In this document: piece after piece, positions 3,590 to 8,943 of the stretch | How the letters are laid out: each line of letters opens with the position of its first letter | Position numbering within the stretch: position 1 is the stretch's first letter | Assembly (NCBI RefSeq): GCF_056712565.1 | Contig: NZ_CM160072.1 | Strand: one strand, 5' to 3' | DNA length: 64,000 nt | The notes under the pieces: model-generated | The model's input: the letters and a program-made list of their open reading frames with translations, nothing else | What the model was told of the DNA's origin: nothing | The model's database searches: none | Program-made: the position numbers and the translations under genes

Positions 3590-4285
3590 TTAGACTGGCG
3601 GTAAATCGAACAGCAGGATTTCACTGTCGCTATCAGCATGGATGGAAATCGCCTGCTCATCCCAGATTGCCAGGCCATCGCTGGTCGAGGCTTTCACGCC
3701 GTTAATGGTGACATTGCCTTTCACCACCTGGATCCAGACGCGGCGTTCAGCGGCAATCTGATGCACCGACTGCTCATCTTTCACCAGCGCCCAACGATAC
3801 AGTTCCATATCCTGATGCACTTTCAATGAACCATCACGCGCATCCGGCGAAAGCACCAGTTGTTTGCCCTGCACGGCATCGAAGCGACGCTGTTCATAAC
3901 GCGGCGTAATGCCGTTTTCTTCAGGCATGATCCAGATCTGATACAGATGCAGACGCTCGGTGCTGCTTGGGTTGTACTCTGAGTGACGAATACCCGTACC
4001 CGCACTCATAATCTGGAACTCGCCCGCCGGAACCTGCTCTTTATTGCCCATGCTGTCCTGATGCTCAACAGTACCTTCCAGCACGTAGGTCAAAATTTCC
4101 ATATCTTTATGCGGGTGAGTGCCGAAGCCCTGCCCTGCTTCAATCACGTCGTCGTTAATCACGCGCAGCGCAGAGAAGCCCATAAAATTCGGATCGTAAT
4201 AGTTGGCAAAAGAGAAAGTATGCCAGGAGTCCAGCCAGCCATGATTTGCATGACCGCGTTCATTTGCTTTGCGTAAGTAGATCAT
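3590..4285 (-). CDS. yhhW: Pirin-like cupin, quercetin 2,3-dioxygenase
   Basis: 231 aa; cupin His motifs (HPHKDMEI); matches YhhW. Confidence 0.9.
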   Translation of the reverse strand: MIYLRKANERGHANHGWLDSWHTFSFANYYDPNFMGFSALRVINDDVIEAGQGFGTHPHKDMEILTYVLEGTVEHQDSMGNKEQVPAGEFQIMSAGTGIRHSEYNPSSTERLHLYQIWIMPEENGITPRYEQRRFDAVQGKQLVLSPDARDGSLKVHQDMELYRWALVKDEQSVHQIAAERRVWIQVVKGNVTINGVKASTSDGLAIWDEQAISIHADSDSEILLFDLPPV

Positions 4286-4407: not shown

Positions 4408-5445
4408 TTACCTCGCGAGAGTCACTGCGGAGGGAGAAGATTGCTCAAAACCGCGTTCAAGGATTTCCAGATTCGTAAGAACTTCAGATTCCTTGACGTA
4501 ATTTGGCGCACCGTTGGTGATGGTTTGATACAACGCATCATAAACGCGCCCATAATCGCCCATCTCTGGCTTCATCTCTTCTCTTACCGTCACGCCCTCG
4601 TCATTGACATACTCCAGCACACCGACCGAATCATCCGCTGCGAATCCTGGTTCGCCCGGCATAATATTAGCCTTCAGGCTGGTTTCCTGCTGGTCGATAC
4701 CGTATTTAATAAACGAACCTTTCTTACCGTGAACGATAAATTTCGGATAATCGATTTTCACCAGATGGCTGGTTTTGACGATGGCTTTTAGATCGCCATA
4801 AAACAGCTGCGCTTCAAAGGTGTCGTCCGGATTGGCTTTATTACGCAGGCTGCGGATGTCATAAGCGACGTGATCCGGGCGACCGAACAGAGAAATAATC
4901 TGGTCCATCGTATGCACACCAAGGCCATAGAACGCGCCATCCTGCGGCAGCCCCGGTTTGGTTTCTGCCACCGGGCGGTAATAGTCAAAATGGCTTTCCA
5001 CTTCGACAATCTCTCCCAGCTTGCCGCTTTCAATCGCTTTTTTCGCTGTCAGGAAGCAGGAATCAAAGCGACGATTCTGATACGGCGTAACGATCAGCCC
5101 TTTGCTTTTCGCCAGTGCAAACAGCTCTTTCGCCTGCGCAATTGTCGGAGTGAACGGTTTTTCGACCAGCACATTTTTCCCGGCTTCCAGCGCGCGCTTC
5201 GCGTACTCGAAGTGGCTGTCCGCGTGGGTGCAGACGACAACCAGCTTAACATCGGGATCGTTTAGCACTTCGTCGAGATCGCTGGTGAAATGGATATGGG
5301 AATAAATGGGGGCCTGTTCTTCCGGCTTCGCATGGCGGCGAAAAATATGCGCGACATGCCAGCTATCCTTGCGGTTAAGTACATACGGCAGATGGTAACG
5401 GGTGGTGCTTTTGCCGAAGCCAATAAAGGCGCAGTTAATGACCAT
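4408..5445 (-). CDS. yhhX: Gfo/Idh/MocA-family NAD(P)-dependent oxidoreductase
   Basis: 345 aa; N-terminal Rossmann GFGKS motif; matches YhhX. Confidence 0.9.
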   Translation of the reverse strand: MVINCAFIGFGKSTTRYHLPYVLNRKDSWHVAHIFRRHAKPEEQAPIYSHIHFTSDLDEVLNDPDVKLVVVCTHADSHFEYAKRALEAGKNVLVEKPFTPTIAQAKELFALAKSKGLIVTPYQNRRFDSCFLTAKKAIESGKLGEIVEVESHFDYYRPVAETKPGLPQDGAFYGLGVHTMDQIISLFGRPDHVAYDIRSLRNKANPDDTFEAQLFYGDLKAIVKTSHLVKIDYPKFIVHGKKGSFIKYGIDQQETSLKANIMPGEPGFAADDSVGVLEYVNDEGVTVREEMKPEMGDYGRVYDALYQTITNGAPNYVKESEVLTNLEILERGFEQSSPSAVTLAR

Positions 5446-5566
5446 GATTTCGTCCTTTTTAAGGTGGTTATTTACACCTTAGCGCAAAGCGGACGTGGTT
5501 CCTACTGGAGTGCGCATAACGAACACAAGCACTTCCCGAGGATAAATTGAGAACGAAAGGTCAAAA

Positions 5567-5680: not shown

Positions 5681-5778
5681 TCGCACTTGTCCAACACTTT
5701 TTGCAAAAAAATGCATTTGACTCGCATTTGAAAGTCAATGATGTTGAAAGGGACATTTACCCCAAAGAGGACAAAGGA

Positions 5779-6267
5779 ATGAGTGAGATAGTAATACGCC
5801 ACGCAGAAACACGCGATCACGAAGCCATCAGGCAGATTCACGCCCAGCCGGAGGTGTATTACAACACGCTACAGGTGCCTCATCCTTCAGAACAAATGTG
5901 GCTGGAACGACTCACCGCTCGCCCTGGCATCAAGCAGTTAGTCGCCTGTATTGATGGAATCGTCGTAGGCCATCTCACCATTGACGTGCAACAACGCCCA
6001 CGCCGCAGTCATGTTGCCGATTTTGGTATCTGTGTCGACTCTCGCTGGAAGAACCGCGGCGTCGCCAGCGCCCTGATGCGCGAAATGATTGATATGTGCG
6101 ACAACTGGTTGCGGGTAGATCGCATCGAGCTAACGGTGTTCGTCGCTAACGCGCCAGCAATTAAGGTCTATAAAAAATTCGGCTTTGAGATTGAAGGGAC
6201 TGGCAAAAAGTACGCATTACGTAATGGTGAATATGTCGATGCGTATTATATGGCGCGGGTGAAGTAA
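5779..6267 (+). CDS. yhhY: GNAT-family N-acetyltransferase
   Basis: Internal ATG gives 162 aa beginning MSEIVIRHAETRDHE; GNAT motifs (RGVASALM); matches YhhY. The ORF track start at 5701 is an upstream extension. Confidence 0.85.
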   Translation: MSEIVIRHAETRDHEAIRQIHAQPEVYYNTLQVPHPSEQMWLERLTARPGIKQLVACIDGIVVGHLTIDVQQRPRRSHVADFGICVDSRWKNRGVASALMREMIDMCDNWLRVDRIELTVFVANAPAIKVYKKFGFEIEGTGKKYALRNGEYVDAYYMARVK

Positions 6268-6274
6268 GATAGTG

Positions 6275-6299
6275 CCCTTTTTCTGAGATGGAAAAAGGG
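6275..6299 (+). terminator. Hairpin ccctttttc/gaaaaaggg downstream of yhhY
   Basis: 9-bp perfect inverted repeat 8 nt after the yhhY stop; the following U-tract is weak. Confidence 0.4.
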
Positions 6300-6502
6300 T
6301 GTCATTCAAAATCGGCATACCTTCCTTTAATGTATTTATTTTCCCAATAAATATATGAGATTTACCTCATAATTACTTCCTAAAGTGTAATATTTTATTT
6401 TTTAATATATACGCCTACAATTTCCTGGAGTAAATAAATAACAATTAACAAGCATAATATTGCCATTGATAAAATAGCATGCCATAAAAGGACTTTTCAG
6501 GG

Positions 6503-7681
6503 ATGAGTAATATTGTTTATCTGACAGTAACGGGAGAACAACAAGGAAGCATCTCCGCAGGTTGTGGGACTACTGAATCTATAGGTAATCGCTGGCAGAG
6601 CGGTCATGAGGATGAAATATTTACATTCTCACTCTTAAATAGTATTACTAATACGGGGCTTGGTTCACAGTTCCATGGTATAACATTTTGTAAATTAATT
6701 GATAAAAGCACTCCATTATTTATTAATTCCATTAACAATAATGAACAATTATTTATGGAATTTGACTTCTATCGAATAAATAGATTTGGTAGATGGGAAA
6801 AGTATTATTATATACAACTAAGAGGCGCTTTTTTATCGGCTATTCATCACCAGATCTTTGAAAACCAACTGGATACAGAAACAATAACTGTTAGTTATGA
6901 ATTTATCCTCTGCCAACATCTTATCACTAACACCGAGTTCAGCTATTTGGCACTCCCTGAAAATTATAACCGCTTGTTTTTACCAAATTCAAAAAACAAA
7001 ACAAATAATGGTTTAAAAACGTTAAACAGCGAAGCTGTTGGCAGGCTACTTGCTGCTGGTGGCGTATACAATGGGAACATTGAAGGATTCAGAGATACTG
7101 CGGAAAAACTGGGTGGAGATGCAATCAAAGGCTATGATCAAATACTAAATGAAAAAACAGCGGGCATAGCGATAGCAACAGCATCTATTCTTTTAACAAA
7201 GCGTTCTAATGTTGATACATATACAGAAATAAATAGTTACTTAGGCAAACTTAGAGGCCAACAAAAACTTCTTGATAGTATAGACATAATAGAAATAATA
7301 TAAATTAAGAGACCTTCAAAAGACTTAGCTAACTTACGAAAGGAGTTTAATAAAAATGTAAGAAAAAATTTTCTTATCAAACTTGCAAAAACCTCCGAAG
7401 CATCTGGAAGATTCAACGCCGAAGACCTTTTAAGAATGAGAAAGGGCAATGTTCCTCTAAATTATAATGTACACCATAAACTATCTCTAGATGATGGTGG
7501 TACTAATGATTTGGAAAATTTAGTATTAATCGAAAACGAACCATATCATAAGGTTTTTACTAACATGCAATCACGAATAGCTAAGGGAATATTAGTGGGT
7601 GAAAGCAAAATCACTCCCTGGGCCATTCCATCTGGCTCAATTTATCCTCCCATGAAAAATATTATGGAACCCACAAAATGA
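6503..7681 (+). pseudogene. yhhZ: yhhZ-like Hcp-domain polymorphic toxin with C-terminal HNH nuclease domain, interrupted by an in-frame TAA at 7301-7303
   Basis: ORFs 6503-7303 and 7436-7681 share one reading frame; codons after the TAA continue open (IKRPSKDLANLRKEF...) into an HNH motif (HHKLSLDDGGTNDLENLVLIENEPYHKVF). 266+1+125 codons equals the 392-aa K-12 YhhZ length as I recall it. Confidence 0.65.
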
Positions 7682-8172
7682 TGACTAAAACCCAAATAAA
7701 TAAATTAAAAAAAATGATGAATGATTTAGACTATCCATTTGAAGCACCGCTCAAGGAATCATTTATTGAAAGTATAATCCAAATAAAATTTAATTCTAAC
7801 TCAACTAATTGCCTGGAGAAGTTATGTAATGAAGTTAGTATTCTCTTTAATAATCAACCTGATTATCTTACTTTTTTAAGAGCAATGGATGGATTCGAAG
7901 TTAATGGATTACGATTATTTAGCCTCTCGATTCCAGAACCTTCAGTTAAAAACCTTTTTGCCGTAAATGAATTTTATAGAGATAATGATGATTTCATAAA
8001 TCCTGACTTACAAGAACGGTTAGTGATCGGGAATGATAGCATTTCAATATTTACTTATGACATTAAAAGTAACTTTTTTGAAATTAGAGATAATATTGGC
8101 ACAGAAAATATATTCAGTTCGTTTAGTGATTTCTCTTCATTCTTAAACGAAATCATGGACAGTTGTTCATAA
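7678..8172 (+). CDS. yrhA: Putative immunity protein for the YhhZ nuclease; intact here
   Basis: 164-aa ORF overlapping the yhhZ stop by 4 bp (ATGA), typical toxin-immunity coupling; AT-rich. In K-12 I recall yrhA being split by IS1; no IS1 sequence is present here. Confidence 0.65.
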   Translation: MMTKTQINKLKKMMNDLDYPFEAPLKESFIESIIQIKFNSNSTNCLEKLCNEVSILFNNQPDYLTFLRAMDGFEVNGLRLFSLSIPEPSVKNLFAVNEFYRDNDDFINPDLQERLVIGNDSISIFTYDIKSNFFEIRDNIGTENIFSSFSDFSSFLNEIMDSCS

Positions 8173-8621
8173 TAATAAAAAGGTAACCAAAATCATTGTA
8201 AACCATGCCATCTTTTTAGAGTTTACCAGCAGTAAATTTCTTGATCGAAATTTATCAATACAAGCTATAGAAAAACTTACAACGGAACTACACTCCTTAA
8301 GTGAGATGGACCGAAGACATGTAGTCGCTATTTAAACTGAAATAGCTAATGGCGATGATGATCTTAGTGACATGTTGATTTGGTTAGAATTTTACCCGAA
8401 TCATAAGATTCTGATATCTTAAATGAGCAAATCCGGTTCGACGTTCTGGAAAATAAATCACAAAATATTAGCAGATACTTATTTTGTGACTATACCTTAT
8501 CCGATGAACTCTTTTCAAAACCAGCATTTAATAATATCTTTGACGAAGATGAACGCGTCTTTGCTCAATGTATAACGCAGGAATAATAATATAACGCTAA
8601 ACAATAATATTTATTATAATT

Positions 8622-8906
8622 ATGATTACTTATCACGACGCATTCGCGAAAGCGAACAATTACCTTGATGATGCAAATCTCCCGGTCGTCATTACTCTAC
8701 ATGGACGCTTTAGCCAGGGCTGGTATTTCTGTTTCGAAGCACGAGAATTTCTCGAAACTGGAGATGAGGCCGCGCGCTTAGCTGGTAACGCACCTTTTAT
8801 TGTTGATAAAGGCAGTGGTGAAATTCATTCTCTGGGAACGGCAAAGCCACTGGAAGAATATCTACAGGATTATGAAATAAAAAAGGCTACCTTCGGCTTG
8901 CCCTGA
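8622..8906 (+). CDS. yrhB: Small heat-stable chaperone-like protein
   Basis: 94-aa ORF; translation matches YrhB. Confidence 0.8.
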   Translation: MITYHDAFAKANNYLDDANLPVVITLHGRFSQGWYFCFEAREFLETGDEAARLAGNAPFIVDKGSGEIHSLGTAKPLEEYLQDYEIKKATFGLP

Positions 8907-8943
8907 CAATACGGCCCTCTTCCCACTAAGAGGGCCGCTAACC

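What the first reader, a model, noticed from the sequence alone, without database searches (positions are those of the whole stretch)
8173..8621. AT-rich 450-bp non-coding stretch after yrhA, possibly decayed remnants of further toxin or immunity cassettes
No ORF over 60 codons on either strand, very low GC, and short broken reading frames, lying between an immunity-like gene and yrhB. Polymorphic toxin loci commonly carry arrays of orphan immunity or toxin-tip fragments downstream; this region could be such debris or an island boundary.
Basis: inference. Interest (0 to 1): 0.25.

Follow-up and report, generated by a model that had tools for sequence, protein, structure and literature searches.

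The report
Two decayed orphan immunity genes
The AT-rich gap between yrhA and yrhB holds the wrecks of two small toxin-immunity genes, one of which includes what E. coli K-12 annotation calls yrhD. This is ordinary decay in a toxin-swapping locus, but it explains an uncharacterised K-12 gene.

Summary
Window 8173-8621 has 31% GC and no ORF longer than 50 codons. It is not featureless spacer, though: it holds two tandem gene relics on the + strand.

Psi-1 (8174-8422) is a start-less, about 83-codon homologue of an unannotated family of 80-87 aa four-helix proteins. In Citrobacter, Serratia, Xanthomonas, Pectobacterium and Cupriavidus these proteins sit in the immunity position, directly after a conserved CdiA C-terminal toxin domain. 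RefSeq's 51-codon yrhD is the 3' part of this relic. In this strain its ATG is ATA and it carries an in-frame TAA.

Psi-2 (8422-8589) matches the first 54 residues of an intact 86-aa gene. That gene follows an Hcp-toxin fusion in the same yhhY-ggt slot of Citrobacter sp. FP75. In E. coli its start codon and last third are gone.

The stretch diverges about as fast as neighbouring synonymous sites, and psi-1 has dN/dS of about 1. Three E. coli alleles carry different nonsense mutations.

In E. fergusonii, yrhB (Imm35) directly follows an Hcp-glutamine-amidase fusion.

The locus therefore looks like a stack of immunity genes left by successive toxin-end replacements. This is a known kind of feature and of modest interest.

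The parts
6503..7681 (+). yhhZ/tssD, an Hcp-HNH fusion effector (Hcp-ET1 type). In this strain it is a pseudogene with TAA at 7301-7303.
   Evidence: Pfam T6SS_HCP on 6503-7303 and HNH on 7436-7681. 7303 is A here and C in the intact allele. RefSeq marks 'internal stop' in ATCC 11775.
7678..8172 (+). yrhA, an intact gene in the immunity position of the HNH effector. Its start overlaps the yhhZ stop.
   Evidence: NCBIfam NF038335 YrhA family, E 3e-36. dN/dS 0.15-0.22 between alleles.
8085..8114 (+). Promoter-like site TAGAGA-18-TATATT inside the 3' end of yrhA, upstream of the relics.
   Evidence: Consensus scan. The same hexamers are listed as an RpoD genomic-SELEX promoter with an H-NS mark between insB-6 and yrhD in PMC3946193. 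Promoter-like sites in the region as a whole occur at chance level.
8174..8422 (+). Psi-1: a start-less relic of about 83 codons from a CdiI-like four-helix immunity-family gene, in the reading frame of 8174.
   Evidence: phmmer hits to intact 80-85 aa proteins, E 4.5e-5 to 1e-3 in 1.8e9 proteins. Profile search found about 60 intact members of 73-97 aa, mostly 80-87 aa. Alignments A2 and A3. tblastn E 1e-8 to 3e-12 against their loci. There is no ATG/GTG/TTG at the family's start position. dN/dS 1.0-1.2.
8267..8422 (+). The part of psi-1 that RefSeq and K-12 annotate as yrhD (51 codons). Here ATG is ATA (8267-8269).
   Evidence: Annotation transfer. Substitution 8269 A/G.
8333..8335 (+). In-frame TAA that breaks psi-1/yrhD in this allele. 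It is TTA in the K-12-type allele.
   Evidence: 8334 A versus T. Translations.
8422..8589 (+). Psi-2: relic of the 5' two-thirds of an 86-codon immunity-position gene, in the reading frame of 8173. AAT (8422-8424) stands where the Citrobacter homologue has ATG. TAATAA at 8584-8589 cuts it at codon 55.
   Evidence: tblastn 8425-8583 versus L028:4706-4864, 47% identity over 53 aa, E 5e-13. BLASTP E 8e-17. ORF map of L028. The reverse search gave E 9e-11 on the window.
8423..8575 (+). Spurious 50-codon ORF (MSKSGSTFW...) created by substitutions in this allele only.
   Evidence: Listed. The same frame is closed in the K-12, L018 and L019 alleles. It has no homologue.
8590..8621 (+). 32-nt AT-rich spacer before yrhB. 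It takes the place of the missing 3' third of psi-2.
   Evidence: Sequence. Citrobacter continues for 32 more codons at this point.
8622..8906 (+). yrhB, an intact orphan Imm35 immunity gene.
   Evidence: Pfam Imm35, E 5.6e-22. In E. fergusonii it directly follows an Hcp-Gln_amidase fusion. dN/dS 0.07-0.56.

Best explanation
The stretch is genetic debris: two tandem, inactivated orphan immunity genes lying between the current immunity gene (yrhA) and an older, still intact orphan immunity gene (yrhB). All of them sit downstream of the Hcp-HNH effector gene yhhZ.

Inferred mechanism: the 3' toxin-encoding end of the Hcp gene, together with its immunity gene, has been replaced several times by recombination at this yhhY-ggt hot spot. 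Each replacement left earlier immunity genes downstream, as in CDI and Rhs orphan arrays. Immunity genes that still meet their toxin in nature (yrhB) stay under purifying selection. Psi-1 and psi-2 lost theirs, lost their start codons, accumulated nonsense mutations and a 3' deletion, and now drift neutrally.

The annotated small protein YrhD is the last 51 codons of psi-1, which happen to begin with an ATG in K-12-type alleles.

Shown here: homology, genomic position, loss of start codons, independent nonsense mutations, and neutral divergence. Inferred: that both ancestral proteins were immunity proteins (from their position next to toxins only), and the order and mechanism of cassette replacement.
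For: 1. Psi-1 homology. A reconstructed translation of the stretch hit intact 80-85 aa proteins over its residues 1-70. A profile search found about 60 intact members of 73-97 aa (mostly 80-87 aa), and it hit E. coli YrhD at E 1.5e-9 as a partial match. The alignment keeps the family's invariant F, E and E positions in the IFLE and ME motifs.

2. Family context.
- The gene overlaps or abuts the stop of a PT-VENN CdiA-CT in L005-8, L013, L021/22 (Citrobacter) and L023/24 (Serratia).
- The last ~124 aa of those toxins are 62-80% identical to one another.
- Truncated remnants of the same toxin domain lie upstream in L017, L025/26 (Xanthomonas) and L027 (Pectobacterium).
- In Cupriavidus (L009-12) the gene sits inside a CDI orphan array.

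3. Psi-2 homology and synteny with Citrobacter sp. FP75. The order there is yhhY, Hcp fusion, 86-aa gene, yrhB, ggt. A short remnant of the 86-aa gene's C-terminus, EGFVGYVALEKK against EGFVEYIGLERK, lies just upstream of yrhB in the Hcp-less E. coli lineage L054. None of 2000 shuffles reached that score.

4. Decay.
- Neither relic has a start codon at the family's start position.
- Three alleles carry different nonsense mutations: TAA at 8333-8335 in the window type, TGA/TAG after ...DMLI in L018/L019, and TAA in psi-2 in the K-12 type.
- The window and K-12 alleles differ at 33 of 449 sites (7.3%) with no indels. That is about the synonymous divergence of yrhA and yrhB (0.03-0.18).
- Psi-1 dN/dS is 1.0-1.2, against 0.15-0.22 for yrhA. 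An omega of 0.2 is rejected at p = 0.001.
- Nearly invariant family positions (D29, L75, G80) are lost in E. coli.

5. Cassette turnover at the slot.
- E. fergusonii has Hcp-Gln_amidase followed by YrhB.
- E. coli variants are empty, hold a DUF4225 gene, hold yrhB only (233 genomes), or carry the full island (about 3780 of 5426 genomes).
Against: - The immunity function of both families rests on gene position only; none has been tested, and neither has a Pfam, NCBIfam or PDB relative.
- One family member (P0020) lies between housekeeping genes rather than next to a toxin.
- Psi-2 has a single intact homologue.
- No toxin fragment accompanies either relic, unlike many orphan modules.
- In K-12-type alleles (2786 genomes at 99% identity or more) the 83-codon psi-1 frame is still stop-free, which only 2.9% of shuffles achieve. 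Decay there may be recent, or residual expression is not excluded.
- The dN/dS values rest on 8-20 substitutions. For psi-2, omega ranges from 0.17 to 0.91 and is inconclusive.
Confidence: 0.85

Rival explanations
1. YrhD is a real, functional 51-aa protein, a domesticated C-terminal half of the old immunity gene, at least in K-12-type strains. The window strain has simply lost it.
For: An ATG-initiated 51-codon ORF is present and annotated as 'protein YrhD' in most genomes that carry the island: 2786 genomes are at least 99% identical to the K-12 allele. An in-vitro RpoD promoter was reported upstream (PMC3946193).
Against: - dN/dS of the 51 codons is above 1: 9-10 non-synonymous changes against 1 synonymous.
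- Two of three allele classes break it, by an internal stop plus ATG>ATA or by a premature stop.
- It would contain only about helices 2b-4 of a four-helix bundle.
- No literature on a product or phenotype was found.
Confidence: 0.06
2. The stretch is kept as regulatory DNA: a promoter or leader for yrhB, or an H-NS-bound silencing region. Its coding-like features are incidental history.
For: - yrhB is intact and under purifying selection, and needs a promoter, particularly where IS1 or nonsense mutations interrupt upstream genes.
- An H-NS mark and a SELEX promoter are reported nearby.
- No indels separate the four aligned allele types over 449 bp.
Against: - Promoter- and terminator-like sites occur at chance level: 12 found against 12.7 expected.
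- Divergence of 7.3% equals neutral expectation, with no clearly conserved block beyond short runs.
- In E. fergusonii and in the L054 lineage, yrhB is present without this stretch.
- This reading is compatible with, and is not an alternative to, the pseudogene origin.
Confidence: 0.08
3. The stretch encodes a structured non-coding RNA.
For: Folding energy is slightly better than shuffles: z = -1.76, with 3 of 100 shuffles folding as well.
Against: There is no Rfam match above noise; the best is snoZ5 at E 0.62, far below its gathering score. Substitutions between alleles are frequent and show no sign of constraint. The protein homology fully accounts for the sequence.
Confidence: 0.01

Closest known systems
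Orphan cdiA-CT/cdiI modules downstream of CDI loci and orphan rhs-CT/rhsI arrays (general knowledge: Poole et al. 2011; Koskiniemi et al. 2014)
   Same: Immunity genes are stacked downstream of a polymorphic toxin gene in the same orientation and are attributed to displacement by newly acquired toxin-end/immunity cassettes. The psi-1 family itself occurs in exactly such CDI arrays.
   Different: The carrier here is an Hcp-fusion T6SS effector, not CdiA or Rhs. No toxin-CT fragment precedes the relics. Both relics are pseudogenes rather than intact, expressible orphans.
Hcp-ET polymorphic T6SS effectors with downstream immunity genes (Ma et al. 2017, as summarised in PMC6730261)
   Same: [quoted passage not shown] The same slot holds Hcp fusions with other toxin ends: Gln_amidase in E. 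fergusonii and an unknown CT in Citrobacter.
   Different: In the text I read (PMC6730261), the review describes cognate and duplicated immunity genes, and does not mention decayed non-cognate immunity relics. In this strain the effector itself is a pseudogene.
E. coli K-12 yrhD (RefSeq 'protein YrhD', 51 aa, uncharacterised)
   Same: Same locus and same reading frame. Window 8267-8422 is its allele.
   Different: Here it is read as the 3' 51 codons of a start-less, about 83-codon relic, not as a gene of its own. In the window allele it lacks the ATG and has an internal stop.
Small helical nuclease-immunity proteins such as colicin E-type Im proteins (general knowledge)
   Same: The intact psi-1 family is predicted to be a compact four-helix protein of about 83 aa (pLDDT 96). 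It is encoded next to a toxin whose model weakly resembles PD-(D/E)xK nucleases.
   Different: No sequence or fold match to any solved structure: best Foldseek E 0.46 with TM below 0.46, and hmmsearch against PDB gave only noise. Membership is not supported.

Membership tests
Orphan immunity array of a polymorphic toxin locus | Lies downstream of, and co-oriented with, a toxin gene and its cognate immunity gene | tested here: met
   The order is yhhZ (Hcp-HNH), yrhA, psi-1, psi-2, yrhB, all on the + strand.
Orphan immunity array of a polymorphic toxin locus | Each element is homologous to a gene that elsewhere sits immediately after a toxin domain | tested here: met
   Psi-1: 8 or more loci with the same CdiA-CT domain upstream. 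Psi-2: one locus, after an Hcp fusion. yrhB: after Hcp-Gln_amidase.
Orphan immunity array of a polymorphic toxin locus | Elements are intact ORFs able to give protection | tested here: not met
   Both relics lack start codons. Psi-1 has an internal TAA, and psi-2 lacks its last 32 codons. They are relics of array members, not functioning ones.
Orphan immunity array of a polymorphic toxin locus | Orphan toxin-CT fragment precedes the orphan immunity gene (common, but not obligatory) | tested here: not met
   tblastn of the paired CdiA-CT domain and of the Citrobacter Hcp CT against the window gave nothing below E 1.
CdiI-like four-helix family (unnamed; alignment A3) | About 80-87 aa with the conserved core ...AIFLEF...D.D.A(I/V)..ME(Q/K)...EL..L... 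| tested here: met
   The window frame reads KIIVNHAIFLEFTSSKFLDRNLSIQAIEKLTTELHSLSE. The invariant F, E and E positions are kept.
CdiI-like four-helix family (unnamed; alignment A3) | Conserved C-terminal LPE.LGL motif and the D of LDPD/LDED | tested here: not met
   E. coli has YPNHKILIS and LDRN/LVRN at these positions, consistent with decay.
CdiI-like four-helix family (unnamed; alignment A3) | The protein neutralises the adjacent CdiA-CT toxin | not testable with these tools
   Inferred only from adjacency and start/stop overlap in several genera.
RefSeq 'protein YrhD' | ATG-initiated uninterrupted 51-codon ORF | tested here: not met
   ATA at 8267-8269 and TAA at 8333-8335. RefSeq flags 'internal stop' in identical alleles.
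Pfam/NCBIfam immunity families (Imm*, CdiI, SMI1_KNR4, Colicin_immun) | Match to a curated profile above its cut-off | tested here: not met
   No family hit for psi-1, for its intact relatives, for psi-2 or for the Citrobacter 86-aa protein. Only yrhB matches Imm35.

The most novel reading that the evidence does not exclude
In K-12-type alleles the still-open 83-codon psi-1 frame might be translated at a low level. This could start from a non-canonical start (ATC/ATT, 7 nt after an AAGGA Shine-Dalgarno-like motif at the position equivalent to window ~8182-8199), or arise by a +1 shift at the end of yrhA, since the frame is open from 8147. The product would be a near-full-length four-helix protein that still protects against a CdiA-CT nuclease-like toxin circulating in Citrobacter and Serratia. 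On that reading it would be a cryptic, not dead, immunity gene in most E. coli.
Probability: 0.04. Interest if true: 0.5.

Novelty: new member of a known kind. Interest (0 to 1): 0.3.

Why it matters
- It gives a concrete origin for an uncharacterised K-12 gene. yrhD is best treated as a fragment of a pseudogenised orphan immunity gene, so it should not be counted among candidate small proteins without expression evidence.
- It documents toxin-end and immunity turnover at an Hcp-fusion effector locus. The same yhhY-ggt slot carries Hcp-HNH, Hcp-Gln_amidase, an Hcp fusion with an unknown toxin end, only yrhB, or nothing.
- It shows that YrhB/Imm35 pairs with an Hcp-glutamine-amidase toxin in E. 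fergusonii.
- As a by-product it points to an unannotated toxin/immunity pair in CDI loci of several genera that could be tested directly: a ~124-aa CdiA-CT with a D..D.K motif, plus an ~83-aa four-helix protein.

None of this changes the current picture of polymorphic toxin loci.

Tried and rejected
1. My first working idea was that the whole stretch is one ~139-codon gene with a -1 frameshift near 8410. I rejected it. The family homologous to the 5' part ends where yrhD ends, and the 3' part matches the N-terminus of a different 86-aa protein.
2. Pfam and NCBIfam scans of all frames, of the intact relatives and of the paired toxin domain gave no family.
3. A PDB sequence search and Foldseek of the AlphaFold models gave nothing significant. 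For the toxin there were only weak hints of a PD-(D/E)xK fold: NucS at E 0.02, and the T6SS effector PA3907 complex at TM 0.53.
4. Rfam, the promoter/terminator scan and RNA folding gave nothing above background.
5. tblastn for toxin-CT remnants in the window found none.
6. DNA-level searches of the Citrobacter 86-aa gene and of the E. fergusonii Gln_amidase end in 5426 E. coli genomes found no match.
7. A search for relics in the O157:H7 (DUF4225) and empty versions of the slot found none.
8. The word-indexed protein search with the reconstructed protein returned only E. coli fragments and assembly fusions. The exhaustive HMMER search was needed to reach the intact family.

Full report
**Setting**

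The window around the finding is the E. coli yhhY-ggt region. The genes in order are:

- yhhY (5701-6267).
- yhhZ/tssD, an Hcp-HNH fusion (6503-7681).
- yrhA (7678-8172).
- The finding (8173-8621).
- yrhB (8622-8906).
- ggt on the minus strand.

Pfam confirms T6SS_HCP and HNH on yhhZ and Imm35 on YrhB. NCBIfam places YrhA in the YrhA/YPO0640 family. Over 6.9 kb the window is almost identical to E. coli ATCC 11775.

**Observation**

The description is accurate.

- GC is 0.314, against 0.51 for the window.
- The longest ORF in the stretch is 50 codons.
- The low GC belongs to the whole 2.3-kb island (0.32).
- A 59-codon stop-free run is what shuffled sequence gives 31% of the time, so composition and broken frames alone prove nothing.
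- RefSeq annotates a pseudogene 'protein YrhD, internal stop' at window 8267-8422 in identical alleles, and an intact 51-aa yrhD in K-12-type genomes.
- The K-12 IS1 is inside yrhA, not in this stretch.

**5' half: psi-1 (8174-8422)**

The frame of 8174 reads NKKVTKIIVNHAIFLEFTSSKFLDRNLSIQAIEKLTTELHSLSEMDRRHVVAI*TEIANGDDDLSDMLIWLEFYPNHKILIS*.

- A word-indexed search found only E. coli fragments and fusion artefacts.
- An exhaustive phmmer search of 1.8 billion representatives found intact 80-85 aa proteins aligned over query residues 1-70, at E 4.5e-5 to 1e-3.
- A profile built from these hits recovered about 60 intact members of 73-97 aa (mostly 80-87 aa). They come from Xanthomonas, Cupriavidus, Citrobacter, Rahnella, Serratia, Ewingella, Salmonella enterica subsp. 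indica, Pectobacterium, Pantoea and Labrys. All are 'hypothetical' and none has a Pfam domain.
- The same profile hit E. coli YrhD as a partial match at E 1.5e-9.
- In the alignment, E. coli keeps the invariant F, E and E positions (IFLE, ME). It has lost the nearly invariant D of LDPD and the C-terminal LPE.LGL motif.
- AlphaFold2 predicts a compact four-helix protein for an intact member (pLDDT 96), with no relative in the PDB by fold or by sequence.
- The full-length gene corresponds to about 83 codons, starting at or just inside the yrhA stop codons. No ATG, GTG or TTG is present there in any E. coli allele.

yrhD is therefore the last 51 codons of this relic.

**What the psi-1 family is**

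In metagenomic loci L005-8 and L013, in Citrobacter sp. Awk 4 (L021/22) and in Serratia proteamaculans (L023/24), the gene overlaps the stop codon of a PT-VENN-containing CdiA or orphan CdiA-CT.

- The last ~124 residues of those toxins are mutually 62-80% identical (KV.WVDENA.MS..A..YNDSA.GARSN...GQAP...VRFDG.DG.VM.DRK.SVV..KAKDQA.RQS.AL..NG.TGRWEV...).
- In L017, in Xanthomonas sacchari (L025/26) and in Pectobacterium punjabense (L027), truncated remnants of that same toxin domain lie just upstream.
- In Cupriavidus (L009-12) the gene sits at the end of a CDI orphan array, next to ImmE5 and CdiI genes.
- One member lies between an AMP-binding enzyme gene and a fumarase gene.
- The toxin domain has no Pfam or PDB sequence match. 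Its model (pLDDT 88) only weakly resembles PD-(D/E)xK nucleases and a T6SS effector.

That the family is the cognate immunity of this toxin is an inference from repeated adjacency. It has not been tested.

**3' half: psi-2 (8422-8589)**

The frame of 8173 reads ...LNEQIRFDVLENKSQNISRYLFCDYTLSDELFSKPAFNNIFDEDERVFAQCITQE**. It had no hit in the large searches.

To test it in a small, relevant database I collected YrhB homologues, aligned them and fetched their loci from one genome per species.

- tblastn then hit Citrobacter sp. FP75 at L028:4706-4864, with 47% identity over 53 aa and E 5e-13. BLASTP gave E 8e-17.
- The hit is the N-terminal 54 residues of an intact 86-aa ORF (L028:4703-4963).
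- That ORF starts 2 nt after an Hcp-fusion gene and ends 37 nt before the yrhB homologue, in the same yhhY...ggt slot.
- In E. coli the position of its ATG is AAT (8422-8424).
- The match runs to 8583, and TAATAA follows where Citrobacter continues for 32 codons. Only 32 nt separate that point from yrhB.
- The K-12-type allele has an additional TAA inside psi-2.
- A short but well-placed remnant of the missing C-terminus (EGFVGYVALEKK against EGFVEYIGLERK) lies just upstream of yrhB in an E. coli lineage that lacks the Hcp island. None of 2000 shuffles scored as well.

**Selection**

The window-type and K-12-type alleles differ at 33 of 449 positions (7.3%) without indels.

| Region | dN/dS between alleles |
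|---|---|
| yrhA | 0.15-0.22 |
| yrhB | 0.07-0.56 |
| psi-1 frame | 1.0-1.2 |
| the 51 yrhD codons | above 2 |
| psi-2 frame | 0.17-0.91 |

- Total divergence of psi-1 is 8%, equal to the synonymous divergence of the neighbouring genes.
- An omega of 0.2 is rejected for psi-1 (p = 0.001). Psi-2 has too few changes to decide.
- Three allele classes carry different disabling mutations.
- Among 5426 complete E. coli genomes, about 3780 carry the stretch. Of these, 2786 are at least 99% identical to the K-12 type, 410 to the window type and 318 to the L018 type.

**The slot is a cassette hot spot**

- E. fergusonii has an Hcp-Gln_amidase fusion whose stop overlaps the yrhB start, followed by ggt. 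YrhB/Imm35 is therefore in the cognate position for that toxin.
- Other E. coli have yhhY-yrhB-ggt (233 genomes), a DUF4225 gene (O157:H7) or nothing.
- The Gln_amidase end is absent from all complete E. coli genomes.
- Hcp fusions with varied toxin ends are a described class, Hcp-ET (PMC6730261).

The simplest reading is repeated replacement of the Hcp toxin end plus immunity gene, which stacks older immunity genes downstream. yrhB survives, while psi-1 and psi-2 decay. The order and mechanism of these events are inferred.

**Other readings**

- Rfam gives nothing.
- The folding z-score is -1.76.
- Promoter-like sites occur at chance level.
- A published RpoD SELEX promoter with an H-NS mark (TAGAGA-18-TATATT, PMC3946193) maps to 8085-8114 inside yrhA.
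- A regulatory by-function is not excluded, but nothing requires it.
- A functional 51-aa YrhD is unlikely given omega above 1 and the two broken allele classes.

**Verdict**

It is not supported for toxin tips or for an island boundary. This is a new instance of a known phenomenon. Its useful consequences are a re-reading of yrhD and a pointer to an unannotated CDI toxin/immunity pair.

Noticed in passing
window 7301-7303 (within yhhZ 6503-7681): The Hcp-HNH effector gene carries a nonsense codon (TAA; TAC in the otherwise near-identical strain FDAARGOS_536). The toxin is therefore dead in this lineage while its immunity gene yrhA is intact. RefSeq flags the same 'internal stop' in ATCC 11775.
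   Followed up: partly
window ~9301 (ggt, minus strand 8944-10703): A 1-nt deletion relative to ATCC 11775 and FDAARGOS_536 splits ggt into two ORFs (8944-9303 and 9198-10703). It is either a real frameshift or an assembly error. It is one of only two differences from ATCC 11775 in 6.9 kb.
   Followed up: partly
L052:499-1934 (E. fergusonii): An Hcp-Gln_amidase (PF15644) fusion is immediately followed by YrhB (Imm35). This suggests YrhB is the cognate immunity protein of a glutamine-amidase Hcp effector that no complete E. coli genome carries.
   Followed up: partly
L005:1841-2233, L013:1112-1501, L021:6634-7008, L023:6640-7014: A conserved ~124-aa CdiA C-terminal toxin domain with no Pfam or PDB sequence match and an FDG.DG.VM.DRK motif. 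Its AlphaFold model (pLDDT 88) weakly resembles PD-(D/E)xK nucleases. It is always paired with the ~83-aa four-helix family.
   Followed up: partly
L028:3448-4701 (Citrobacter sp. FP75): The Hcp fusion with an unknown C-terminal domain has an in-frame stop at 3691-3693, where E. coli has a Gln codon, while the downstream 86-aa gene is intact. This is another case of a dead toxin next to a live immunity-position gene. An extra 83-aa ORF (5302-5553) lies between yrhB and ggt.
   Followed up: no
yhhY-ggt slot: L054, L056, L057 versus window 6268-8943: The slot is highly polymorphic in E. coli. It is empty (60 nt) in some genomes, holds a DUF4225 gene plus ~730 bp of unannotated DNA in O157:H7, holds yrhB only in others, or carries the full Hcp-HNH island.
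   Followed up: partly
P0008, P0009, P0010 (database proteins of 234-246 aa); window 8147-8422: Public assemblies contain YrhA-YrhD fusion proteins created by 1-nt changes at the yrhA stop. The psi-1 frame is open from 8147, overlapping the last 8 codons of yrhA.
   Followed up: no
P0003 (227 aa, JGI metagenome, 1.4-kb contig): A chimeric protein whose unrelated N-terminus joins the psi-1 sequence exactly at ...QKETKIIVN, the start of the homology. It could be a recombination junction or an assembly chimera.
   Followed up: no
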